Positions 1-52,413 of a stretch of DNA of 52,880 nt are shown here, one piece after another. The notes beneath the pieces were generated by a model. It saw nothing but the letters and a program-made list of their open reading frames with translations, was not told where the DNA came from and ran no database searches. A program made the translations under genes and the position numbers. Origin of the DNA: Candidatus Uhrbacteria bacterium (GTDB taxonomy: Bacteria > Patescibacteriota > Patescibacteriia > JACQRZ01); the NCBI GenBank assembly GCA_016188385.1, contig JACPHV010000037.1:1-52880 (forward strand), in the 5' to 3' direction. The first letter of the stretch is position 1. Each line of letters opens with the position of its first letter.

Positions 1-109
1 CGCGTACAAAACCAAAAATTTCCTTACCAATCCATTTTCGGCGGGGGGTGTGGGGGGAGCCGCTAAAAAAATGAAAGGAAATTTTATGGTTTTGTTTCCG
101 CCGCTTCAC
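1..109. repeat. Left arm of a perfect inverted repeat, cut by the window edge; exact reverse complement of 6481..6589
   Basis: A block-by-block reverse complement of 6481..6589 equals 1..109. Identity stops at 110/6480. The arm contains the G-tract GGGGGGTGTGGGGGG. Confidence 0.95.
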
Positions 110-121
110 CATGTAGAAATT

Positions 122-140
122 ATATGGCAGTTTGGCATAT
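122..140 (+). promoter_or_regulatory. Candidate controller-protein operator (imperfect palindrome ATATGGCA-GTT-TGGCATAT)
   Basis: 8-bp arms with one mismatch, about 30 nt upstream of the XRE-family gene start at 169. Confidence 0.25.
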
Positions 141-168
141 TACGCAATGGAATACAAGATACTAATAT

Positions 169-390
169 ATGCCTAGAGCGATATACAAAGAAGAACATCA
201 AAAAATTGTAGAACGTTTGAAAAAGGCGCGGGTTGAAGCTGGTCTAGATCAGGTTGCTGTTGCTGAAAAACTTGGGGAAACTCAATCTTATGTTTCGAAA
301 ATAGAATCGGGACAAAGGCGTTTTGATGTATTGCAACTTAAGGAATTTGCAAAAATTTATAAAAAAGACATTTCTTATTTTATTCAATGA
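169..390 (+). CDS. XRE-family helix-turn-helix protein, probable R-M controller (C) protein
   Basis: 73 aa with a typical HTH_3 pattern (LDQVAVAEKLGETQSYVSKIESGQR). Its stop overlaps the next start (ATGA at 387-390). Confidence 0.8.
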   Translation: MPRAIYKEEHQKIVERLKKARVEAGLDQVAVAEKLGETQSYVSKIESGQRRFDVLQLKEFAKIYKKDISYFIQ

Positions 391-1580
391 CATCTCTCAT
401 AACAACACACTTCGGAAATAAAGACTTTGATATTAGGAAAAAATTTCCTGGTTATTCGCGCTTCATGGACCAAAAAGTTACACCTGATGTTTTGGCGTTT
501 ATTGCTGACTGCGTACTAAATTTACCAGATAGTGAATCGTTTACAGTAAGAGATATTTGGGAATCTGATTATTTTGAGAAAAATACGAAAGCAATATTTG
601 GGAAACCAGCACCTTCTAATGATTCGGCATTTTCTGAATACAACAAATTCATCGGACAACCACTGAAAACACTCGCCTACGCACAAGTGTTAAATGAAAG
701 AAAAGACGGAAACACAAATCGATATGCAATCAACAAAAAGGAGCTTTTGGAATATATTTCTCTCAACGAGAGGGGTGCGTTGGATTTTCTCTGTGAATAT
801 TTGATAAAGGTTCTAACTGACAGCGGTTTCTATTCACATTTTGAGACATATCGTGATCAAGTGAGCGCGAATCACGATTCCAGTAGTTTTGATACTTTCA
901 AACAAAGATTCCAACGCTTCATACGAGGCAACACAGAAATCAACGGAATTTTAGAGATAAATCGAATTTTCCCCAAAGTACTAAATCCACTCGCAGTTAA
1001 AGAAAATATTCCTGGAAGTGAAAAGGGGTACATGACTAAACATCCTTTCATGTTTAGCGAGTTGATGTACAACCGAACAAATTTCCGTGACCTGAAAAAA
1101 GCAAAAGGTGTTTCAAGACAAGAGGCTGTTGAACTTGTATCAGAGCAAAGGCAACAGGAGGATTTTACAGAATATCGAAATACGAAAGCAATGGAGCTTA
1201 TCAAGCGAAAATACACTGCGAGTGAGGTGCGAGATAAATGGGCGGATGGACCAGCTACTTATGTACATCACATTTTCCCACGCGCTAGGTATCGTGAGTA
1301 TGCTGCACATACAGAAAATCTTATTAAACTAACAGCCGAACAGCATTACGGGAATGCCCATCCGAGTGCTAGAACACAAGAAGTAGATCCTGATTACCAA
1401 ATACAATGTCTTCTCGCAAAATGCGACAGCATTGAACAGTCTTTGCGAAACGGAGAATTTATCTACTCAAAAGACAGTTTCATTTCCATGATAAATACTT
1501 GTCTCGGATTGGAGATAGATAGTCAATCATCTTTTGATGATTTACGAAAAGCACTCGCTCGCATACAGACCAAGGCTTAA
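387..1580 (+). CDS. Putative HNH-type restriction endonuclease
   Basis: 397 aa with a C-terminal HNH-like motif (YVHHIFPRARY...ENLIKLTAEQHYGNAHP). Translationally coupled to the C protein and convergent with the methyltransferase, overlapping it by 4 bp. Confidence 0.55.
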   Translation: MTSLITTHFGNKDFDIRKKFPGYSRFMDQKVTPDVLAFIADCVLNLPDSESFTVRDIWESDYFEKNTKAIFGKPAPSNDSAFSEYNKFIGQPLKTLAYAQVLNERKDGNTNRYAINKKELLEYISLNERGALDFLCEYLIKVLTDSGFYSHFETYRDQVSANHDSSSFDTFKQRFQRFIRGNTEINGILEINRIFPKVLNPLAVKENIPGSEKGYMTKHPFMFSELMYNRTNFRDLKKAKGVSRQEAVELVSEQRQQEDFTEYRNTKAMELIKRKYTASEVRDKWADGPATYVHHIFPRARYREYAAHTENLIKLTAEQHYGNAHPSARTQEVDPDYQIQCLLAKCDSIEQSLRNGEFIYSKDSFISMINTCLGLEIDSQSSFDDLRKALARIQTKA

Positions 1581-4117
1581 GCTGTCTTGGCTAAACCAAA
1601 GAAAAATACGGAATTGTTGTCAATATTTAATGACCTGGTTCCGTAATTTCTAGCAACCCTGTAAAACTCCACAAATTCATCTGAATTGTAGTATGCAAGA
1701 TTATCTTCGGTAACTTCAGTCTCTTCTTTCGGGATAAGTACAGCAACCGAGCCATCTACGATAGTGTCTTCTGGCAAAAAACACGCTCGCGGATTGTACG
1801 TTAAATTTGGAACTAGGACAGCTGTTTCGTGGTTAACATATTTTCCAATTGCCAAATTATCATACTCATCAACATACGAATCGTAGTTTGGTATATCTAC
1901 AATTACATTACTTCCGATATTTCTAGATTTAAGAACGCGTATTCGGCCTGATGATTTTGTAATTCTCTTTGTAATTTGTCGATCTCGGTATGCTTCAAAT
2001 ACTCCGAATTTAAGCTTGGATGCAACATCATCAAAGAAAGTATCGCGATAAACGAGCCAGTAAGGAAATTCGGGTGAACAAATATATTTTTGCTTCTTAA
2101 ACCCAATTTCATTTTTTACATAAGACTCCACCAAGGTTTGGTTATCTACCCCTTTCTTTTTTGTATTCAGAATTAGACTAATGGTTTCTATTTTTATTCC
2201 CTTAAATCCTCTTTCTCCATAGTCAGTGATTTTCTCAATCGCAAATTCAGCGACGTACTCTCGCGTGTCGTTAAATTCGGGAGTTGAAAGAAAGCTTTTA
2301 GGGATTATCAAGGCTACTGTATCGGCATGACTTATGGCCTTTTCCAAAAAGAAAGAAAAAAGATTATTAGTTCTTGAATTATGTTTGTTTTTCTTGTATT
2401 CAATCAATAAATTTTCGTTGTCGGTCAATTTACCGAAAGGAGGATTGCCTACAACACTATTGTAGTGAGTGTTTTCTGTAGAAAATAGTCCATTACGACC
2501 AAACAGCAAGAAATCTTCATTGATGAAATTGATTTTGAAATTGTCAGGAATATTAAGTTTTTGAACTAAAACTTTTAGAATTTCAATGGCGTTTGGATCA
2601 ATGTCAATCAAATCTATTTGCACATCTGGTACAGATTTGTATTTCTCAATTAGAAGCGGTAGAAAGTTTCCTGCACCCACTGATGGCTCAAGAATTCGTA
2701 AAGAGGAAAAATTTGAAGCATCTGGTAAATCTTTTACTACAGTGAAGCAAATATCTTGACGTGTGTAGTAAGCAGCGTGTTGGAGGCGGGCTGCATTTGC
2801 GAATTCTATAATTTTCGACAGCTCGGCATAAGAATAATGTTCGAGATTATTCTTTACAAAAGTTTTTATTTTTTCTACCGAATAAAGTTTATTTGTGTCA
2901 ATAATATTTTGCGCTTCTTTTTCATCCAAAATAACTTTCTGAATGGAAGTTTTGATATTTTCTGCAACTTGTCTAAAAATCACCGTTGGCACCGCTTCTC
3001 CAAGTGACTGTCGAATATTCATCTCCTCTTTCTTTAGAAACTTTCGTTTTTTCTCAGATGAAAGTTTGTTTAGATCTTCCTCCGAAATATCAGTCCACTT
3101 GAAAGAATCTGGAACGGACATAAGACGCATAACCTCGCGCACGCTAAATACACGATTATCAGACGGATGAACAGTTGCCTGACTTGCCATTATGTCATTT
3201 CTTGTATGTACACAAGCACCAGGCTTATCCCAATAACAACGCGAATATTTATCCCCATTTTTATTTTTATTAAAGACAATTTTTCCATCCACTATTTTGT
3301 GTGGCCGTCTTTTTGGGTCTTTGTTATCAAAAGCTGATTCTCCCTCTTTTGTTTTCTCAATCCAAGCAAGCATGTGCTCGGCATAGGGGCGGAAGTTGTG
3401 ATAGATATCCTCTGTATCTACTTCGCCCATTTGCTCAAGTGGCTTTAAATCACCAATCACTTCTCGTACAGTCCTTTCTTTCTGGAGTGTAGGCATAAAA
3501 TCTAGCGGTGTGATTTCCGGCATATCTTTCCGTACTCCGAGTACAAGAGTACGAGTACGACTGGATGGATTACCATAGTCCTTAAAATTAATTACTTGAT
3601 AGTGAATGTTATACCTGCCACCTAGATTTAATTCTATGGCCTCGCGAATTTTTTTATCCTTACCATCTATGTCAGTACATAAACTGTTAAGGAAAGCGCG
3701 CACATTCTCAAATAAGAAGAATTTAGGATTAAACTCACTAACTAACTTTACAGATTCAACAACAAGAGAATTACGGGCCAATTCGTCACCTTTTTTATGA
3801 TTTGCAACTGACATACCTTGGCAAGGAGGGGTTGCCATAAGAACATCCAATTCCTTTACACCATGATTCTTTTTCCAAAGATCAAACTCTTTGCGAATCT
3901 TTTCTTTTGTTTCTTCCTTGGTGATATCGTCAGAAATATATCCACTTTCGTAGCGGCACTTATGGTTATGTTTCTGTACATTTAGTCGTCGTTCAATAAT
4001 TTCATTAGTCGCAACACATTCAAAACCCTCTTGCTTAAAACCATAGCACCCAACACCAGCACTACTAAAGAGGCTGATATAAGTAAGCGGTTTATTTTTT
4101 TGATTTTGTTGCATCAT
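1577..4117 (-). CDS. Bifunctional DNA methyltransferase: N-terminal C5-cytosine MTase fused to a C-terminal N6-adenine (Eco57I/TaqI-like, gamma-class) MTase
   Basis: m5C motifs: FSSAGVG (I), TPPCQGMS (IV), FENV (VI), GEAVP (X). m6A motifs: EPSVGAGNF (I), GNPPFG (IV). Confidence 0.9.
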   Translation of the reverse strand: MMQQNQKNKPLTYISLFSSAGVGCYGFKQEGFECVATNEIIERRLNVQKHNHKCRYESGYISDDITKEETKEKIRKEFDLWKKNHGVKELDVLMATPPCQGMSVANHKKGDELARNSLVVESVKLVSEFNPKFFLFENVRAFLNSLCTDIDGKDKKIREAIELNLGGRYNIHYQVINFKDYGNPSSRTRTLVLGVRKDMPEITPLDFMPTLQKERTVREVIGDLKPLEQMGEVDTEDIYHNFRPYAEHMLAWIEKTKEGESAFDNKDPKRRPHKIVDGKIVFNKNKNGDKYSRCYWDKPGACVHTRNDIMASQATVHPSDNRVFSVREVMRLMSVPDSFKWTDISEEDLNKLSSEKKRKFLKKEEMNIRQSLGEAVPTVIFRQVAENIKTSIQKVILDEKEAQNIIDTNKLYSVEKIKTFVKNNLEHYSYAELSKIIEFANAARLQHAAYYTRQDICFTVVKDLPDASNFSSLRILEPSVGAGNFLPLLIEKYKSVPDVQIDLIDIDPNAIEILKVLVQKLNIPDNFKINFINEDFLLFGRNGLFSTENTHYNSVVGNPPFGKLTDNENLLIEYKKNKHNSRTNNLFSFFLEKAISHADTVALIIPKSFLSTPEFNDTREYVAEFAIEKITDYGERGFKGIKIETISLILNTKKKGVDNQTLVESYVKNEIGFKKQKYICSPEFPYWLVYRDTFFDDVASKLKFGVFEAYRDRQITKRITKSSGRIRVLKSRNIGSNVIVDIPNYDSYVDEYDNLAIGKYVNHETAVLVPNLTYNPRACFLPEDTIVDGSVAVLIPKEETEVTEDNLAYYNSDEFVEFYRVARNYGTRSLNIDNNSVFFFGLAKTA

Positions 4118-4158
4118 ATTTATTATAGAAGATATAAACTTTGCTGAGAAGGGCTAAA

Positions 4159-4827
4159 TCATTTTTTGATTACGGCAATAATTTTTCCGTTTATCATAAA
4201 ATCATCCTCACTCGAAACATAAATTGGCTTGTGTTTAGGATTTTTTGATTCAGAAATTAATTTTATATCTCCAGTTTTTGCATCTCGTTCAAATTTCTTA
4301 AGATTAGCCGCACCATCAATAATGGATAAAACATAATCTCCATTTTTCGGTGCTCTATATTCAGAATCAATTAAAACAAAATCTCCCTCTTCAAGATTTT
4401 TCTCATCAATCTTTGCGCGGTTCATAGAGTCACCTTCTACACGCAAAGCAAAAACTCCATCTTTTCGATTTAACTTGCTTCGTGAAATTTTTAAATAGCC
4501 CGCAATATTTTCTTCAGCAAACAATGTTGCAGGTCCGGCATTTGCCGCGCCCAAAACAGGAACACGAACAGAATCCATTCCTGTCTTTTCTAAAAAAGGA
4601 GTTTTCATCGTCCGATCTGCGTAAATACCAATTGAGCGTGGTTTGTTCGATTCTCTCTCTAAATATCCCTCTTCTTGCAATTTCTTCACATGATAGTGAG
4701 CAGACGATGGATAGTTTAGAAAATCAGAAAAATGCTCCGCTATATCTTCCAGAGAGGGAGCCACACCGTGCTCATGCGAGTACGACACTATAAAATCGTA
4801 TATTTGCTTTTGCTTTTTACTGATCAT
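4159..4827 (-). CDS. lexA: LexA-type repressor (winged-helix DNA-binding domain plus S24 self-cleaving peptidase)
   Basis: The N-terminus matches the LexA DNA-binding pattern (KQIYDFI...GVAPSLEDIAEHF...HVKKLQEEGYLE). An Ala-Gly cleavage site lies in GAANAGPA, with GDSM serine and a downstream lysine (NLKKF). The ATG at 4827 is preferred over the TTG at 4842. Confidence 0.85.
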   Translation of the reverse strand: MISKKQKQIYDFIVSYSHEHGVAPSLEDIAEHFSDFLNYPSSAHYHVKKLQEEGYLERESNKPRSIGIYADRTMKTPFLEKTGMDSVRVPVLGAANAGPATLFAEENIAGYLKISRSKLNRKDGVFALRVEGDSMNRAKIDEKNLEEGDFVLIDSEYRAPKNGDYVLSIIDGAANLKKFERDAKTGDIKLISESKNPKHKPIYVSSEDDFMINGKIIAVIKK

Positions 4828-4831
4828 TGTA

Positions 4832-4900
4832 TTGACATTCAAATTATTTTCAAATACAATATCAGTATACTTGAAACTTCAGACAGGAACAAGTATACTT
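4832..4900 (+). promoter_or_regulatory. Divergent control region: sigma70-like promoter TTGACA(4832-4837)-17 nt-TACAAT(4855-4860), followed by two AGTATACT palindromes (4864-4871, 4892-4899)
   Basis: Read directly from the sequence. The palindromes are part of 10-bp inverted arms AGTATACTTG/CAAGTATACT separated by 16 nt, at about +1 and +25 of the predicted transcript. Confidence 0.4.
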
Positions 4901-4927
4901 TATCCACACCCCCAAATACTTACACTT

Positions 4928-5845
4928 ATGATTATTAAGAAACGACGAATACGAGACATTGAGTCAAATCTGCCCGCCGTTAAAGACGGCCAGAAAATTA
5001 TTATTGGTGTTAAAAATCTGGATGACAAAAAAGTTCAGCTAAAAAGGGTGGGGTTTGAGAGTATAGATATCGGTACGTCTGTTCTCCCAAGTCCCGTGTT
5101 CGGTCCAGTCAGTAGATTCAACGCTAACGGAAAAAATTTAGTACACAAAGATAAACCAAAGGAAACAGCGTACAGAACCATTGAGTGGCATTGGAAACAA
5201 TGGCACGGGAAGGATACGATCGATATGTCAAAACTTGTCGATGTTCCGTACAAAAGATACCCCCGAAGCTTTGTTGCTCCGCCCAGCGTTGAATTAAAAC
5301 TAACCACATCCACAAAAAGAGAGGTGCTACTTGTGACGCCAATGTACACCATGGGTTCTGAAGTTGGTGCTCTGTTGCACGCAATCAATCTACTCCTTGA
5401 GATTTTTGGTGAATGTTATGTGTATACGGAAGATCTAGACGAAATTATTAAGACCGAGACCGTTCGTCTAAACTGGAAAATATTGCCCGAGGGAAAGCGA
5501 CCCTGGCAACAACTCAAGAACGAATTAAACCCCGTTATTTCAAAAGCCCGGAAAGGAAAGAGGAAATTTATTGAGAAGCGGCTTGAAACAATAAATGCGT
5601 TTGAACCAGAATTTACAGCAGTGGGCACTGCGGGGTTTGCGGGATATATAATTATGGGATTTCCTTCTTCAGATGTATTTGTATTGGAGAGTTTGTATTA
5701 CGGCAACGCAACCTATGTGCTCGGTACAAACTGGGAGTCGATCTCCAAATTCACAAAGGCGGAAATACTAAATGAGAACCTTCATAAAGACCGAATAATA
5801 CATCGTGTCAGCTGGTTCGATAAAATTAAGAGTGTATTTAAGTAA
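4928..5845 (+). CDS. Hypothetical protein (305 aa), divergent from lexA
   Basis: Long ORF with the island's AT-rich composition. The ATG at 4928 avoids overlap with lexA. I recognised no motif. Confidence 0.6.
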   Translation: MIIKKRRIRDIESNLPAVKDGQKIIIGVKNLDDKKVQLKRVGFESIDIGTSVLPSPVFGPVSRFNANGKNLVHKDKPKETAYRTIEWHWKQWHGKDTIDMSKLVDVPYKRYPRSFVAPPSVELKLTTSTKREVLLVTPMYTMGSEVGALLHAINLLLEIFGECYVYTEDLDEIIKTETVRLNWKILPEGKRPWQQLKNELNPVISKARKGKRKFIEKRLETINAFEPEFTAVGTAGFAGYIIMGFPSSDVFVLESLYYGNATYVLGTNWESISKFTKAEILNENLHKDRIIHRVSWFDKIKSVFK

Positions 5846-5849
5846 ATCT

Positions 5850-6146
5850 ATGTCTAATAAACGATCCAAGGTCGGGCAGAAAAAACACGATGAAAGCGTG
5901 CGGAAAACTGCCGACTGGTACAAAAATCAAGGATTCACAGTTAAAGCCGATCTACCAGGACAAATCAAACCTAAGAAAATAGGAGGATTTGTGCCAGACG
6001 TAATCGCAAAGAAAGGAAAGAAAGAAGTGATTGTTGAAGTAGAAACGAAGAAAACAGCAAGCGCAGACAAAGAGCAACAGCAAGCGTTTCGTGACTACGC
6101 AAACAGAAAGAACAGTCGTGTATTCCGAAAAAAGATAGCAAAATAG
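5850..6146 (+). CDS. Small PD-(D/E)xK (Hjc/restriction-endonuclease-like fold) nuclease candidate
   Basis: 98 aa with the pattern E-x(n)-GF.V-x(n)-PDVIA-x9-VEVETK (D...E.K core). Its ATG lies 4 nt after the upstream stop. Confidence 0.55.
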   Translation: MSNKRSKVGQKKHDESVRKTADWYKNQGFTVKADLPGQIKPKKIGGFVPDVIAKKGKKEVIVEVETKKTASADKEQQQAFRDYANRKNSRVFRKKIAK

Positions 6147-6211
6147 GATTGTTCTAGGGAGTTCCGCTTGCGCGCGCATGGGAGGGTTGGGACAAGCGCA
6201 ATATGATTTGC

Positions 6212-6247
6212 TTGTGCCATTCAGTAGTTTGGCACAATCTGCTTTTT
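6212..6247 (+). terminator. Possible intrinsic terminator after the 4928-6146 gene pair
   Basis: Stem TTGTGCCA/TGGCACAA (6212-6219 / 6230-6237), then TCTGCTTTTT. The T-run is offset by 5 nt, so the call is weak. Confidence 0.3.
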
Positions 6248-6480
6248 AGAGTTACCACGAACGCCACCGAAGCCACAGAGCGAACACGAAGCAAGCACCG
6301 AGCAGGCATCGCGAGCGAATGCGAGCGGCCAATGCGAGGTGATTGCGAAGTGTGAGCGGACTTCTGAACTACCACCAAACACGGAGAGGAAGCGCCTCGC
6401 ACCGACGCAAACGACGGAAGAAAGGGCGGACAGGATATCACCACTTTGCTATACTCAAATTACAAGCCCTTTCTGGAGGA

Positions 6481-6589
6481 GTGAAGCGGCGGAAACAAAA
6501 CCATAAAATTTCCTTTCATTTTTTTAGCGGCTCCCCCCACACCCCCCGCCGAAAATGGATTGGTAAGGAAATTTTTGGTTTTGTACGCG
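6481..6589. repeat. Right arm of the perfect 109-bp inverted repeat (partner 1..109)
   Basis: See the left arm. The match may continue beyond 6589, but the partner sequence lies outside the window. Confidence 0.95.
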
Positions 6590-6917
6590 CGACCAGAGGG
6601 AGCGTGCGAGGCGCGCAACATTCGCTTCACCACACGATCGGAGCGTACGATTGGGTTTCGAGCCACTACGCGCTCGGCGCGTGCGTCAGTCATCAAAATC
6701 CTGCGGATTTTGCTCATACAATGTTCGAACTTCGTCCAAAAAACACCGAATGAAATGGAGCGTAGCAAAATGTAATGAGGAGGGGAGCAACACAACTGCT
6801 TGTGGTGCGTGGGGATGAGAACGCCGGAGCGATATCCGGTTAGCAGACCGGATCGCGAGGCGGTGGCTAGACCGAGGTGAGCGACGGCGAGCCGAGAGTC
6901 GAAGCCGAATCCCCCCC
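6481..6917 (-). ncRNA. Candidate structured RNA with a tmRNA-like 5' end (ssrA?); the 3' boundary is a guess
   Basis: The minus strand from 6917 reads GGGGGGGAUUCGGCUUCGACUCUCGG, close to the remembered E. coli tmRNA 5' end GGGGCUGAUUCUGGAUUCGACGGGA. The region is GC-rich, has no credible ORF and holds many stems. I found no canonical T-arm/ACCA 3' end and no convincing tag ORF. Confidence 0.25.
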
Positions 6918-6994
6918 TCTCCGCCAATAGAAACTTCCGTCAAGAGGGGCTTTTGCGTAGGCCCTACATTATTGAATAATTTTTGCAGTGGAGT

Positions 6995-7360
6995 ATGGCA
7001 ACAATACAAGACACGTTTTTTCGCATTCAAGATACCAAGAAGAAACAGCGAGAGATTCGCTCGCTGTATCGTGAGGCGCTGAAAAAGTCACACAGTTATC
7101 AAGAGGTTCTTACTGATATGCAAACTCTGCGTGAAAAGAAAAAAAGAATTGAAGAAAACATTCGTACAGAATATGCACGCGATCTGGAGCAGCTTGACGC
7201 ATTGGTCGCAGAGCTAAAAGAAGATCATTCAAAACTTGCTGATATGGTGCTCTCATCCTTGATGCGCGGCGAGATTATTAAAGTGCGCGATACGCATAAT
7301 ACTGTCTATAATCCGATCGTCAAAGTGGCATTCAAAAAGTCCGACGAACAAGAACGCTAA
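6995..7360 (+). CDS. Hypothetical coiled-coil protein
   Basis: 121-aa ORF rich in charged heptad-like sequence. No recognised domain. Confidence 0.5.
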   Translation: MATIQDTFFRIQDTKKKQREIRSLYREALKKSHSYQEVLTDMQTLREKKKRIEENIRTEYARDLEQLDALVAELKEDHSKLADMVLSSLMRGEIIKVRDTHNTVYNPIVKVAFKKSDEQER

Positions 7361-7395
7361 ATTTACATAATCTTTTATTCATTAACAGATATCGT

Positions 7396-8274
7396 ATGGG
7401 AAGGAGAGATGTGCTGTGGATTTTTGGGACCGCTGTTTTCGTGCTCCTGGCATCGGGTGTTATTGTGACCGTCAGCATTTCGCGCTGCCTCGGCGATCTT
7501 GGATGTATCTCTCAATTTCAGTACTCGTATATCGTCTCGATGAACAATGCCATCTCTCGCTATACAGAGAATGTATTTTCTTGCTCCGCAAAGGGAATTG
7601 ATGGAATCAATTTTCTCGCGCTCAAAGATGAGTCGACAGACACACTCGAGTGTCGAAAAATTAATCCGACTGAAGATGGCATCATCACGAAGATCGTGAG
7701 CGCGGCTTCTCTTGTAAAAAAAGAAGCTGACAGTAGCACGCAACCTGCATCCACGGAACTATACCAAGATGAGGATTTTGGCATTGCGTTTGAATCATTC
7801 GCCACTTCCGCAATCATCAAAAATGAAAACGAAATGACCTCGAAAGACGCGACCGGCTCGATCAAGCGATTTTCAATCGAATCAGAAAAAAGTTTTATTG
7901 ATCAGATAAAAGGCATCATATCTTCTGAAGGCGGCAATAATGATGCCTGTCAGATACGCGTCATGCCCGAATCGTCAAATGAAATCTCCGCAACAATATG
8001 GCCGCGCAAGATTGAGGTATACGAGGAAAAAGCAGAACAGAAATTTCCTGATCTCGATGATTATTTCAATAACTCACAGGCGTTTATTCGAGCCGCCGCA
8101 ACGAAGGATTGTTCACAGTTTTCTGATATTCGTGAAACGGGAGGATACTTCCTCTATAGTCCGACTGAAGCGCCTGACAGATATTATTATGTTAAGCGCA
8201 CGTCAAAAGCCGATTCACCAACGTTCTATTCAGGCAAGATCCGTATTTTACCCGATTACGATTTAAGCCAATAA
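7396..8274 (+). CDS. Hypothetical membrane-anchored/secreted protein
   Basis: 292 aa with an N-terminal hydrophobic helix (VLWIFGTAVFVLLASGVIVTV). No recognised domain. Confidence 0.6.
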   Translation: MGRRDVLWIFGTAVFVLLASGVIVTVSISRCLGDLGCISQFQYSYIVSMNNAISRYTENVFSCSAKGIDGINFLALKDESTDTLECRKINPTEDGIITKIVSAASLVKKEADSSTQPASTELYQDEDFGIAFESFATSAIIKNENEMTSKDATGSIKRFSIESEKSFIDQIKGIISSEGGNNDACQIRVMPESSNEISATIWPRKIEVYEEKAEQKFPDLDDYFNNSQAFIRAAATKDCSQFSDIRETGGYFLYSPTEAPDRYYYVKRTSKADSPTFYSGKIRILPDYDLSQ

Positions 8275-8492
8275 TGCTGCGAGATCTATTATATTTTTGG
8301 GAATAGTCTTCGCTCTTGGGATTGGTTTTGTAATGGTGGCAAGCGTGGGCGAAAAACAATGACCGTAAACCGCCCCCGTTTCACTTCTGATCCATTGCCA
8401 GAGCGTATTGACCATAGTGGATTAATTTTCTACAAACTCAATTTAATGGAGTACTATCGTTATATGGGACATTAATTACTATCTATGCATAT

Positions 8493-8657
8493 ATGGTCAT
8501 CGCCACGTCAGTAGAAAATGAAGAGACATACCAATGCGAGGAATGCGGATTTCATTATTTGGAAAAAGAGCAAGCCGAAACGTGTGAAGTATGGTGTAAG
8601 GAACATAAGAGCTGCAATCTGGAAATCACTGCAACCGCGCTGGAGAATAAGCGATGA
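8493..8657 (+). CDS. Small Cys-rich protein (54 aa; CxxC...CxxxC...C), absent from the >=60-aa ORF track
   Basis: Hand translation gives MVIATSVENEETYQCEECGFHYLEKEQAETCEVWCKEHKSCNLEITATALENKR. It lies just upstream of the copper operon. Confidence 0.35.
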   Translation: MVIATSVENEETYQCEECGFHYLEKEQAETCEVWCKEHKSCNLEITATALENKR

Positions 8658-8861
8658 AGACGACAAGTTGTTGCGCTAGTCCATTTAATGACGTCTCGTA
8701 AATGTTTTGCGCGAGATCGGGCGATGAGTATCCCGTAACAAGAATTTTCAATGTATAAACCGCCTTATACATTGAATCCGGTGTCCCGCGATAGAGGAAA
8801 AATGGCCACTCTTCCAGCCGCATCCCCCGCGCCCTCTTTACAAATGCCAGAGAGTTTTGTA

Positions 8862-8882
8862 ATATCCCCCTATGGGGGATAT
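8862..8882. promoter_or_regulatory. CsoR-type operator palindrome ATATCCCCC-TAT-GGGGGATAT
   Basis: Perfect 9-bp arms, 23 nt upstream of the csoR ATG. The GC-core, AT-flank pseudo-palindrome resembles known CsoR operators. Confidence 0.6.
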
Positions 8883-8904
8883 CTTTTTCTCCACTCTCAA
8901 AATT

Positions 8905-9171
8905 ATGTATATACCAAAGACACCGAAAGAAAGAATTACGCATCGCTTAAAAATTTCCCGCGGACATATCGGGAAGACCATCCGCATGATTGAAGAGGGC
9001 GCGTATTGTATTGACGTCATTCATCAATTGCAAGCGGTGCAAAAAGCCCTCAAACAAGCCGGCAATATATTGATGGAAAATCACCTCAAGACATGCGCCG
9101 CAACCGCGATACGAAAAGGGCGTGGCGCAAAAGCGATCGCAGAAATTATGGCAATTTTGAATAAATCTTAA
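8905..9171 (+). CDS. csoR: CsoR/RcnR-family copper-sensing repressor
   Basis: Family pattern RLKRI.GQ-like (RLKISRGHIGKTIRMIEEGAYCIDVIHQLQAVQKAL) with a C...H...C ligand arrangement. Internal ATG at 8905 preferred. Confidence 0.85.
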   Translation: MYIPKTPKERITHRLKISRGHIGKTIRMIEEGAYCIDVIHQLQAVQKALKQAGNILMENHLKTCAATAIRKGRGAKAIAEIMAILNKS

Positions 9172-9180
9172 ATTCTTTTT

Positions 9181-9390
9181 ATGACAACAACCGTTACCAT
9201 CAAAGGGACGCATTGCGAATCCTGCAAGTTTGTTATTGAAGACATATGCGGTGAGATTACCGGTGTCAAGCAGTGTACTGTTGATTATAAGACAGGCAAA
9301 ACCGTCATTGATCACGATGAACATTTTACATTAGATGCATTCAAGAAAAAGGTGGAAGGCATCGGAGAATATACCGTAGAAACGCTATGA
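9181..9390 (+). CDS. copZ: CopZ-like heavy-metal-associated (HMA) domain protein
   Basis: 69 aa with an HMA fold pattern and a GTHCESC metal-binding loop. Overlaps the copA start by ATGA. Confidence 0.85.
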
Positions 9391-33481: not shown

Positions 33482-33704
33482 ATGAAGTGAAACGAAATTG
33501 CCAAAGGAAGCAATCCGACCAAGGGAGGAGGGGCGTATACATTGTGGATAACCTGTTGATGAAACACATTTTCTGTTGATACCTAATTGTGTTCAGAAGA
33601 GGTTATTGAGCAGTTTTGCGCCAGGTAAAATCAGAATTTTCCTTATATTCTAGGTTCAAACGACGTTATTTTGATACCATGTTCCAGAAATACCCACCAA
33701 ACCC

Positions 33705-52310: not shown

Positions 52311-52413
52311 AATGAGTGAAACGAATGAGGACGAAAGCGATCCGACCAAGGGAGGATCGCGCGGGAAATCTTGCTTTTCCCGATCATTTATAGCAGAGTA
52401 ACTGTATCTCTAT

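What the first reader, a model, noticed from the sequence alone, without database searches (positions are those of the whole stretch)
1..6589. Perfect >=109-bp inverted repeat brackets an AT-rich, recombinase-less defence island
Seen: 1..109 is the exact reverse complement of 6481..6589. The match stops at 110/6480 and is cut by the window edge on the other side, so the arms may be longer. Between the arms, 110..~6150 is strikingly AT-rich by eye (about mid-30s %GC against about 50-60% in copA, glnII and similar genes). It carries an R-M system, a LexA-like repressor and two uncharacterised genes, but no integrase, transposase or invertase. Inference: inverted rather than direct arms do not fit simple site-specific integration into an RNA gene. 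They fit three scenarios: (a) very long terminal inverted repeats of a non-autonomous element; (b) a segment invertible by homologous recombination; (c) an island wedged between two convergent copies of a structured-RNA gene, since the right arm lies inside the tmRNA-like tract.
Basis: partly seen in the sequence, partly recalled or inferred. Interest (0 to 1): 0.7.

Follow-up and report, generated by a model that had tools for sequence, protein, structure and literature searches.

The report
Inverted-repeat defence cassette holder in Patescibacteria
The inverted repeat is real (268 bp in full) and marks one copy of a widespread, apparently undescribed, probably mobile framework in Patescibacteria, in which two inverted copies of a conserved non-coding module enclose interchangeable anti-phage gene cassettes.

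Summary
1-109 is the exact reverse complement of 6481-6589. The window is a whole contig that starts inside the left arm, and a sister assembly shows the full arm is 268 bp (6481-6748). The interior (110-6146) has 37.5% GC against 49.8% for the rest. There is no tmRNA.

The arm ("R") is the 3' part of a conserved ~593-nt non-coding unit, S+R (6156-6748). S+R occurs at 86-95% identity in 52 stretches of public metagenome contigs. In 21 loci the layout is the same: an inverted R copy, variable cargo, then S+R. Cargo is mostly defence genes: many Type II/III R-M systems, CBASS, Mokosh-like and PD-Lambda-5 proteins.

Sister copies carry a large serine recombinase beside an arm, and arm ends abut tRNA-Ser genes. 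A 99.5%-identical unit sits in different flanks. R is 88-95% identical across hosts with 32-55% GC whose adjacent RecG is 37% identical.

Best reading: a mobile cassette holder, with the window copy recombinase-less at the usual slot. S+R shows no codon signal and has some compensatory pairs, so it may be a new structured RNA. Inversion and the true mobilising mechanism remain untested.

The parts
1..109 (-). Left (short) arm R', cut by the contig start. The full arm is 268 bp in the sister contig L001.
   Evidence: L001 272-539 is the exact reverse complement of window 6481-6748.
110..168 (.). Conserved AT-rich module next to the short arm ('class C'). On the minus strand it has a perfect TATAAT 9 nt before the R' start. 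It also lies upstream of the C-protein gene.
   Evidence: the same ~70 nt occurs in window, L142, L099, L127, L093, L132 and L139. The promoter is read by eye only; the scan tool's criteria were not met.
169..390 (+). HTH_3 controller (C-protein-like) gene of the R-M system.
   Evidence: Pfam HTH_3 3.8e-14; PADLOC control protein / HTH models.
387..1580 (+). Type II restriction endonuclease, 397 aa.
   Evidence: PADLOC REase_II 5.9e-92. No Pfam family.
1577..4117 (-). Fused C5-cytosine + N6-adenine (Eco57I-type) DNA methyltransferase, 846 aa.
   Evidence: PF00145 1.2e-42, PF07669 8.1e-11; PADLOC MTase_II 7e-238.
4159..4842 (-). LexA repressor. It is a recurrent cargo-frame gene, present in 13 sister loci.
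   Evidence: (TIGR00498 123 bits, cut-off 111).
4928..5845 (+). 305-aa protein of a widespread family with no Pfam model (555 homologues). The AlphaFold model is confident but has no PDB fold match. It is not a recognisable recombinase.
5805..6146 (+). AHJR-like (PD-(D/E)xK) nuclease. With the 305-aa gene it is an extra insert relative to sister locus L142.
6156..6480 (+). S: the unique 5' part of the conserved non-coding unit. It contains a promoter-like site at 6427-6455 (CGGACA-17-TGcTATACT) inside a covarying helix.
6481..6748 (+). R: the right (long-arm) copy of the 268-bp repeat, the 3' part of the S+R unit. In most loci it ends ...ACACCG followed by CCA.
6746..6776 (+). 31-nt direct repeat 'a' (1 mismatch) of the trailer of tRNA-Ser(CGA). 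That tRNA lies just outside the left arm in L001.
6779..6927 (+). tRNA-Ser-like remnant. Its 5' GGAGGGG pairs with the 3' end, and its last 17 nt (GAATCCCCCCCTCTCCG) are identical to the 3' end of tRNA-Ser(CGA). It is not called as a tRNA or tmRNA. Homology to close relatives resumes only at 6993.

Best explanation
The arms are two outward-facing copies of 'R'. R is the 3' 268 nt of a conserved ~593-nt non-coding unit, S+R.

Together, [R' - short promoter-like module - cargo - S - R] forms a cassette holder. It circulates horizontally among Patescibacteria and carries interchangeable defence cargo. In the window the cargo is a C-protein-controlled Type II R-M system with a fused double methylase, LexA, and a two-gene nuclease module.

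SHOWN:
- The repeat is real and 268 bp long.
- The same frame recurs in 21 two-arm loci with about a dozen unrelated cargo sets.
- Its outer ends are sharp (...ACACCG|CCA) and are followed by unrelated flanks.
- A 99.5%-identical unit sits in different flanks.
- R is 88-95% identical across hosts that differ by more than 20 GC points and whose adjacent RecG is 37% identical.
- Sister copies have a large serine recombinase (LSR, A118-integrase type) immediately outside an arm.
- Arm ends abut tRNA-Ser genes of three isoacceptors.
- There are no target-site duplications in sister loci.

INFERRED:
- The LSR moves the holder by site-specific recombination at a site resembling a tRNA-Ser 3' end plus trailer (CCG|CCA-AT-rich). 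R's own end mimics that sequence.
- The window copy has tRNA-Ser(CGA) 31 nt from the arm, where sister copies have the LSR. It is therefore a non-autonomous or stranded copy.
- The two hybrid junctions in the window are footprints of such recombination. One is R-end + tRNA-Ser trailer at 6748/6749. The other is tRNA-Ser 3' end + R-type trailer at 6924/6925.
- The conserved arms also serve as homology handles through which cargo is swapped between holders.
- Because the arms are inverted, arm-to-arm recombination would flip the cargo rather than delete it.
- S+R is transcribed outward and folds as a structured RNA leader.
For: Repeat and its extent.

Family: a 32-nt piece of the arm matches 52 stretches on contigs carrying about 26 different dataset prefixes. 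The conserved block is window 6156-6748 for long arms and 6482-6748 for short arms.

Cargo diversity:
- AlwI, Alw26I, DpnII and TdeIII Type II R-M systems;
- Type III R-M with an AriA/PtuA-like ATPase;
- CBASS cyclase with a 2TM effector;
- a Mokosh-like helicase;
- PD-Lambda-5.

Recombinase: the LSR has Resolvase + Recombinase + Zn_ribbon_recom domains and lies next to an arm in L101, L103, L105, L108, L121 and L124. A second LSR type occurs in L123/L130.

tRNA-Ser at an arm end: L001 (CGA), L141 (GGA), L105/L108 (GCT) and L107.

Mobility:
- L105 vs L114 are 99.45% identical over 5479 nt, with different flanks on both sides.
- L121 vs L105 are 99% identical over cargo + S+R, but on a different (84%) LSR backbone and next to the other arm.
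- Host flank GC ranges from 0.32 to 0.555.
- RecG is 36.8% identical between L111 and L127, while S is 91% and R is 88% identical. R of L130 (55% GC host) vs L117 (32% GC host) is 94.7% identical.
- The cargo block alone also occurs without arms in a 448-kb contig, L150.
- There are no flanking direct repeats in sister loci.

Non-coding, structured S+R:
- Variable sites are equal across the three codon phases.
- Indels are 1, 2 and 13 nt long.
- 13 pairs and 80 cells have changes on both sides, against 8.1 and 27.6 in shuffles (0/500 reach the observed values) and 2-7 pairs in slid controls.
Against: - No empty site, excision junction or circular form was found.
- The LSR lies outside the inverted repeat, and LSR elements do not normally have long terminal inverted repeats.
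- In two loci the 'cargo' is housekeeping: ProRS with Mur ligases in L097, and TyrRS in L117.
- RecG lies downstream of the long arm in two deeply diverged hosts, L111 and L127. This could be a trace of vertical synteny.
- In some loci the two arms are only 87-94% identical, so they are not always homogenised.
- The link between the LSR and the movement of the holder rests on adjacency only.
- The covariation signal is modest. The structure was derived from the same alignment, and the reverse strand folds nearly as well.
- The family was found with an exact 32-nt probe, so its invariant core is partly an ascertainment effect.
Confidence: 0.55

Rival explanations
1. Invertible segment. The 268-bp arms, alone through RecA or with the neighbouring serine recombinase, flip the 6.4-kb interior. 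This would switch which outside genes are read from the S-side and promoter-module-side outward transcripts, as a form of phase variation.
For: The arms are perfect inverted repeats 268 bp long. In sister loci a serine recombinase sits just outside an arm. L121 and L105 share 99%-identical cargo + S+R, yet the LSR flank is next to the long arm in one and the short arm in the other. That is the pattern an inversion would give.
Against: Both assemblies of this genome show the same orientation. L121's LSR backbone is only 84% identical to L105's, so they are not isomers of one genome. Known invertase sites are tens of bp long, not 268 bp. In several loci the arms have diverged to 87-94%. No read-level data were available.
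Confidence: 0.15
2. Host gene hot spot. S+R is a vertically inherited structured RNA gene of these bacteria, convergent with a tRNA-Ser gene. An old inverted partial duplicate (R') created a bay. Defence genes accumulate in that bay through ordinary island turnover. The frame itself does not move.
For: S+R has its own promoter-like site, shows some compensatory pairs, and has a tRNA-like ...CCG-CCA end. In L141 it shares a hairpin with a convergent tRNA-Ser. Housekeeping genes lie between the arms in L097 and L117. RecG lies downstream in both L111 and L127.
Against: R and S are 88-95% identical across hosts whose RecG is 37% identical and whose GC differs by 23 points. That is far above what vertical descent of a 600-nt RNA would give. 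A 99.5%-identical unit has different flanks on both sides. Relatives with 63-89% identical p121 lack the tract altogether. A 140-nt piece of R occurs in a predicted viral contig.
Confidence: 0.2
3. Assembly artefact. The left arm would be a chimeric or collapsed contig end rather than a true second copy.
For: The contig starts inside the repeat. Many sister contigs also end inside arms.
Against: The SPAdes-type contig L001 reads through the whole left arm into a unique flank. Logan unitigs attach both ends of the interior to R only. Several contigs from other datasets span both arms with unique sequence outside them, including L114, L140, L127, L105, L108 and L142.
Confidence: 0.02

Closest known systems
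Transposon-like R-M units flanked by inverted repeats, and R-M 'insertion with long target duplication' (Furuta, Abe & Kobayashi 2010, PMC2853133)
   Same: R-M genes are bracketed by inverted repeats with no mobility gene inside the unit. In this genome the unit is also flanked by a long (31-nt) direct repeat of the target, here the tRNA-Ser trailer. Movement in trans as a non-autonomous unit was proposed there too.
   Different: The published examples have 26-65-bp repeats, 8-bp duplications, and repeats unique to one unit. Here the arms are 268 bp and belong to a ~593-nt conserved non-coding unit shared by dozens of units with unrelated cargo. Sister loci show no duplication. A large serine recombinase and tRNA-Ser genes are recurrently adjacent.
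Cassette-chromosome elements moved by large serine recombinases (SCCmec / SCC-like and ccr-less pseudo-SCC). This comparison rests on my own knowledge; the Enterococcus cassette chromosome paper was only listed.
   Same: Small integrative units with variable cargo that often includes R-M. They are moved by large serine recombinases, inserted at the 3' end of a conserved gene, and frequently lack a recombinase.
   Different: The target here appears to be the tRNA-Ser 3' end or trailer rather than rlmH. The ends are long perfect inverted repeats of a structured non-coding unit instead of short integration-site repeats. The recombinase sits outside the repeat and is itself flanked by a 134-bp inverted repeat. 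Mobility by the LSR is inferred, not shown.
Variable defence hot spots framed by conserved core sequence in mobile elements, such as the P2/P4 hot spots. This comparison rests on my own knowledge.
   Same: Conserved flanks enclose a bay in which unrelated anti-phage systems replace one another.
   Different: The frame here is non-coding and inverted, not a pair of conserved phage genes. The host clade is Patescibacteria.
Large ornate non-coding RNAs found next to tRNA genes in phages and mobile elements (GOLLD, ROOL). This comparison rests on my own knowledge.
   Same: S+R is ~600 nt, non-coding, conserved, adjacent to tRNA genes, located on mobile DNA, and shows some covariation.
   Different: There is no Rfam match at E <= 5, so S+R is not a member of either family. 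Transcription and strand are unproven.

Membership tests
   ARAGORN found no tmRNA even at relaxed settings. Rfam gave nothing at the gathering threshold or at E <= 5. As a positive control, a true tmRNA was detected in L143.
DDE-type transposon / composite transposon / MITE | A transposase gene inside the element, or a demonstrable trans-acting one. | tested here: not met
   No transposase domain was found in any window gene or in the sister cargo that was annotated.
DDE-type transposon / composite transposon / MITE | Short target-site duplication flanking the terminal inverted repeats. | tested here: not met
   Six sister loci with both flanks available show no flanking direct repeat next to the arm ends; the one 10-nt match, in L142, lies 52 and 72 nt away from them. 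Only the window genome has a flanking direct repeat, the 31-nt 'a', of which 21 nt match exactly.
Transposon-like R-M unit flanked by inverted repeats (Furuta 2010) | R-M genes bracketed by inverted repeats with no linked mobility gene. | tested here: met
Transposon-like R-M unit flanked by inverted repeats (Furuta 2010) | An empty site in a related genome that lacks the repeats. | tested here: inconclusive
   Relatives lack the whole tract upstream of p121. The left flank is unknown, so no clean empty site could be defined.
Large-serine-recombinase integrative element (SCC-like / serine-integrase island) | Encodes a large serine recombinase. | tested here: not met
   There is no LSR in the window or in L001. 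The slot where sister loci carry it, between R' and tRNA-Ser, is only 31 nt here. The feature is met in sister loci L101, L103, L105, L108, L121 and L124.
Large-serine-recombinase integrative element (SCC-like / serine-integrase island) | Site-specific insertion at a fixed target with no duplication. | tested here: inconclusive
   The outer ends are sharp (...ACACCG|CCA). tRNA-Ser lies next to an arm in five loci. There is no duplication in sister loci. Neither attB nor attP has been defined.
Large-serine-recombinase integrative element (SCC-like / serine-integrase island) | Excision to a circle, and recombinase activity on the ends. | not testable with these tools
   This needs reads or an experiment.
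Site-specific DNA inversion switch (Hin/Gin-type or inverton) | Both orientations present in a population. | not testable with these tools
   Both assemblies of this genome show one orientation. L121 vs L105 show a flank swap between different backbones only.
Site-specific DNA inversion switch (Hin/Gin-type or inverton) | Short (about 20-40 bp) inverted recombination sites with an adjacent invertase. | tested here: not met
   The arms are 268 bp, and the window has no recombinase.
Structured non-coding RNA (new class) | No coding signature. | tested here: met
   Variable sites number 57/61/57 over the three codon phases. Indels are 1, 2 and 13 nt long.
Structured non-coding RNA (new class) | Covariation supporting conserved helices. 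| tested here: inconclusive
   13 pairs and 80 cells have a change on both sides, against 8.1 and 27.6 in shuffles (0/500 reach them) and 2-7 pairs when slid. However, the structure was derived from the same alignment, many changes split two sub-lineages, and the reverse strand performs similarly.
Structured non-coding RNA (new class) | Evidence of transcription. | not testable with these tools
   Only promoter-like sequences are available.

The most novel reading that the evidence does not exclude
S+R is a new class of ~600-nt structured RNA that forms a working part of a serine-recombinase mobile element. It could act as a leader or sensor controlling the recombinase. It could also act as an RNA or DNA scaffold that defines where cargo cassettes are captured and exchanged. 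In either case, the inverted R copies would make a dedicated, portable docking frame for defence systems in the reduced genomes of Patescibacteria.
Probability: 0.15. Interest if true: 0.85.

Novelty: new variant of a known kind. Interest (0 to 1): 0.68.

Why it matters
Patescibacteria have tiny genomes and few recognised mobile elements, yet they carry many R-M systems. A portable frame found in about 26 metagenome datasets would explain how these organisms acquire and exchange anti-phage systems. That frame holds R-M, CBASS, Mokosh-like and PD-Lambda-5 cargo between two copies of one non-coding module.

It also provides three testable things:
- A conserved ~600-nt non-coding unit absent from Rfam.
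- A candidate large serine recombinase family with a tRNA-Ser-type target.
- A natural set of cassette boundaries that can be used to mine new defence genes, for example the 305-aa family here, which has no Pfam model and no PDB fold match.

Tried and rejected
- tmRNA, tRNA or another known RNA for 6147-6930. ARAGORN (including intron and relaxed modes) and Rfam (gathering and E <= 5) found nothing.
- An exact 31-nt search for 'a' in GTDB representative genomes gave no hit; the species is not represented.
- copA neighbours in 80 genomes showed no synteny. copA's best hits were scattered (archaeal, Uhrbacteria), so they gave no help with taxonomy.
- Looking for an empty site through the right neighbour p121. 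Relatives have an ABC-F or DEAD helicase upstream and no tract, but the left flank is unknown, so no clean empty site could be defined.
- Phage and plasmid collections gave no match to the tract.
- Coding potential of R. The start position varies among ATG/GTG/TTG/CTG, which is suggestive of a start codon. There is no codon periodicity, indels break the frame, and the stop lies in the variable flank. R was therefore rejected as a gene beyond a possible short leader peptide.
- Target-site duplication as a family feature was rejected.
- The 148-nt tRNA-like piece as a recurrent element. nhmmer found no other copy, and only L127 shows similar ends.
- The 305-aa protein as a hidden recombinase. 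It has no family in Pfam, PHROGs, NCBIfam or PADLOC. A confident model (pLDDT 90) has no PDB fold match.
- RNAalifold on the gap-rich 46-sequence alignment was uninformative. It was redone on full-length subsets.
- A sigma-70 promoter beside the left arm. The scan tool's criteria were not met, and only a perfect -10 hexamer is seen by eye.
Full report
**1. Observation**

The repeat is exactly as described. 1-109 and 6481-6589 are 109 nt long, 100% complementary, and 6371 nt apart.

The window is an entire 52,880-bp contig, so the left arm is cut by the contig end. A 6344-bp contig of a sister assembly is L001 (GCA_964519625.1). It matches window 1-5914 with one mismatch and continues 430 bp to the left. 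There the arm runs to 268 bp: L001 272-539 is the exact reverse complement of window 6481-6748, and the match stops there.

Independent Logan unitigs of run SRR12113422 end 30 nt inside each arm, at window 80 and window 6510. That is what a k=31 graph does at a true repeat boundary. It also shows that both ends of the interior are joined to R and to nothing else.

Composition is as claimed. 110-6146 has 37.5% GC against 49.8% for 9381-52880. The tetranucleotide distance to the rest of the contig is 0.44-0.48, against 0.16-0.19 elsewhere.

**2. Genes between the arms**

- An HTH_3 controller protein (169-390).
- A Type II endonuclease (387-1580; PADLOC 5.9e-92).
- A fused m5C + N6A methyltransferase (1577-4117, minus strand).
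- A bona fide LexA (4159-4842, minus strand; TIGR00498 above its cut-off).
- A 305-aa protein (4928-5845).
- An AHJR-like nuclease (5805-6146).

The 305-aa protein has 555 homologues across phyla and no Pfam, PHROG, NCBIfam or PADLOC family. Its model is confident (pLDDT 90.2) but has no PDB fold match. It is not a recognisable recombinase.

**3. What the arm is**

Neither ARAGORN nor Rfam finds a tmRNA or any other known RNA in 6147-6930.

A 32-nt piece of the arm has exact matches in 52 stretches of JGI metagenome contigs carrying about 26 dataset prefixes. Many contigs have two copies in inverted orientation, 3.8-7.5 kb apart.

BLAST shows that the conserved object is a ~593-nt unit, window 6156-6748. 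I call it S+R: S is 6156-6480 and R is 6481-6748. It is 86-95% identical across these contigs.

In 21 loci the layout matches the window. There is a short inverted copy consisting of R only, whose inner boundary falls within a few nt of window 6481. Then comes variable DNA, then the full S+R. In nearly all copies the outer end is ...ACACCG followed by CCA.

The short arm is always preceded by one of four conserved AT-rich modules. The window shares 'class C', which contains a TATAAT, with L142, L099, L127, L093, L132 and L139.

S carries an extended -10-like site about 25 nt before R. It reads TGCTATACT in one sub-lineage and TGCTAAAAT in the other.

**4. Coding or not**

Variable sites fall equally on the three codon phases (57/61/57). 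Indels are 1, 2 and 13 nt long. The only long frame ends in the variable flank. So S+R is non-coding, apart from a possible short leader.

On a consensus fold, 97.3% of cells pair. Thirteen pairs and 80 cells carry changes on both sides. Shuffles give 8.1 and 27.6, and 0 of 500 reach the observed values. Slid controls give 2-7 pairs.

The clearest helices are alignment columns 149-212 and 277-350. The second encloses the promoter-like site.

This evidence is suggestive, not decisive. The structure came from the same alignment, several changes split just two sub-lineages, and the reverse strand folds almost as well.

**5. Cargo**

The DNA between the arms differs from locus to locus and is mostly defence:
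- Type II R-M systems of AlwI, Alw26I, DpnII and TdeIII types;
- a RadC-D12 methylase fusion;
- a LexA-methylase fusion;
- a Type III R-M with an AriA/PtuA-like ATPase;
- a CBASS cyclase with a 2TM effector;
- a Mokosh-like helicase;
- PD-Lambda-5.

LexA recurs in 13 loci. There are two exceptions carrying housekeeping genes: L097 (ProRS with Mur ligases) and L117 (TyrRS).

The window's closest relatives are L142, L099 and L123. Their REase is 89% identical, the methylase 97.5% and LexA 96%. They lack the 305-aa and AHJR genes.

Conversely, the block REase-methylase-LexA-305aa-AHJR occurs at 76-92% amino-acid identity in a 448-kb contig (L150). There it has no arms within 6 kb and sits in flanks of similar, low GC. 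The cargo therefore moves independently of the frame. It probably came from a lower-GC lineage.

**6. Recombinase and tRNA-Ser**

In L101, L103, L105, L108, L121 and L124 the arm's outer end is followed by a conserved 244-nt stretch. Next comes a 475-526-aa large serine recombinase with Resolvase, Recombinase and Zn_ribbon_recom domains. Its nearest solved relative is the A118 integrase.

The recombinase gene is itself bracketed by a perfect 134-bp inverted repeat. In L105 and L108 that repeat abuts tRNA-Ser(GCT). A second, distant LSR lies beyond the long arm in L123 and L130.

In L141 the same position holds only a hairpin between R and a convergent tRNA-Ser(GGA). In L107 a tRNA-Ser follows the long arm by 14 nt.

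In the window's genome, tRNA-Ser(CGA) lies 31 nt from the left arm, convergent with it. The slot that holds the recombinase elsewhere is therefore empty. No LSR homologue exists in the window or in L001.

**7. The junctions in this genome**

The 31 nt after tRNA-Ser(CGA) form the repeat 'a'. It recurs, with one mismatch, directly after the right arm at 6746-6776.

It is followed by a 148-nt piece (6779-6927). The last 17 nt of that piece equal the 3' end of tRNA-Ser(CGA). The sequence after it (CCAATAGAAACTTCCG) resembles the sequence that follows R in the nearest sister, L142 (CAGAAAGAAACTTCCG).

So the window holds two junctions: 'R end + tRNA-Ser trailer' and 'tRNA-Ser 3' end + R-type trailer'. 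This is the pattern expected from reciprocal recombination at ...CCG| between an R end and a tRNA-Ser end. That is an inference.

An intact tRNA-Ser-'a' also persists on the left, so the history involved more than one event. Other tRNAs in the window have similar trailers and no encoded CCA. No sister locus has flanking direct repeats, which argues against transposase-type insertion.

**8. Mobile or resident?**

Evidence for movement:
- L105 and L114 share a unit 99.45% identical over 5479 nt, with unrelated flanks on both sides.
- L121 and L105 share 99%-identical cargo + S+R. It is joined to LSR backbones that are only 84% identical, and through opposite arms.
- Flanking host DNA ranges from 32% to 55.5% GC, while R stays 88-95% identical. 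For example, L130 vs L117 is 94.7%.
- The RecG genes next to the unit in L111 and L127 are 36.8% identical, while S is 91% and R is 88% identical.
- Organisms whose p121 (the window's right neighbour) is 63-89% identical have no tract. Homology to the window begins at 6993.
- The first 140 nt of R, behind the class D module, also occur in a predicted viral contig in front of an RNase H-like gene.

Evidence against:
- No empty site or excision product was found.
- The recombinase sits outside the repeat.
- Two loci enclose housekeeping genes.
- RecG is downstream of the long arm in two distant hosts.

**9. Verdict**

The finding is real and more interesting than a single odd island. It is one member of a recurrent frame with inverted arms that holds interchangeable defence cassettes in Patescibacteria. 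The taxon call rests on the names sources give to p121 homologues.

The best-supported mechanism has three parts, all inferred:
- horizontal movement of the frame by a large serine recombinase acting at tRNA-Ser-like ends;
- cargo exchange through the conserved arms;
- the window copy being recombinase-less at the canonical slot.

Inversion of the interior is possible but untested. An assembly artefact is excluded for practical purposes.

The closest described cases are the R-M units flanked by inverted repeats, and the insertions with long target duplication, reported by Furuta et al. 2010. Serine-recombinase cassette elements are another close case, from my own knowledge.

This family differs in three ways:
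- its arms are 268 bp long;
- those arms are part of a conserved, probably structured, ~600-nt non-coding unit unknown to Rfam;
- it shows no target duplication.

Noticed in passing
window 4928-6146; L150 6001-7213, L151, L152: The 305-aa protein belongs to a family of at least 555 proteins found across phyla (cyanobacteria, Kosmotoga, Chloroflexi, Patescibacteria). It has no Pfam model, a confident AlphaFold model (pLDDT 90), and no PDB fold match. In four loci it sits divergent from LexA and is followed by an AHJR-like nuclease. This looks like an SOS-controlled two-gene module of unknown, possibly defence, function.
   Followed up: partly
L105 5698-5831 / 7320-7453; L108 124-257 / 1746-1879; L124 6848-6981 / 8470-8603: The large serine recombinase gene of sister loci is bracketed by a perfect 134-bp inverted repeat with a 1488-nt spacer. 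The outer arm directly abuts the 3' end of tRNA-Ser(GCT). In L141 the first 25-43 nt of the two arms are joined into a hairpin with no recombinase between them.
   Followed up: partly
L116 3492-5021: A single 510-aa reading frame fuses a complete LexA (DNA-binding domain plus S24 peptidase) to an N4/N6 DNA methyltransferase.
   Followed up: no
L001 1-55 and 116-170: An exact 55-nt direct repeat covers 37 nt of upstream sequence plus the first 18 nt of tRNA-Ser(CGA), starting at the contig end. It is either a partial tandem duplication of the tRNA gene's 5' region or a k=55 assembly-graph overlap.
   Followed up: no
window 33482-33493, 52311-52322; L001 241-252: tRNA genes of this genome lack an encoded CCA and share a trailer motif: ATGAAGTGAAAC, AATGAGTGAAAC and ATGAAATGGAGC. 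tRNA-Ser genes next to sister elements do encode CCA.
   Followed up: no
L149 2221-2356 (IMG/VR contig, 42.6 kb); L143 5051-5186: Only the first ~140 nt of R occur here: the invariant long hairpin with a C-rich loop. They sit behind the class D AT-rich module and directly in front of other genes, an RNase H-like ORF in L149. This suggests that this sub-module acts as a portable 5' leader. In L143 a canonical tmRNA lies 1.1 kb downstream.
   Followed up: partly
window 6981-9380: The 2.4 kb to the right of the tract has 42.8% GC, which is intermediate. It holds p121, a 292-aa protein with no family, and CsoR. Only p121 has homologues in relatives, where it lies in different neighbourhoods. The breakpoint with relatives may therefore extend beyond the element.
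   Followed up: partly
L097 585-7539; L117 419-1633: In two loci the arms enclose housekeeping-type genes instead of defence genes. L097 has prolyl-tRNA synthetase, two Mur-ligase-like proteins, an ATP-grasp protein and a methyltransferase. L117 has tyrosyl-tRNA synthetase.
   Followed up: no
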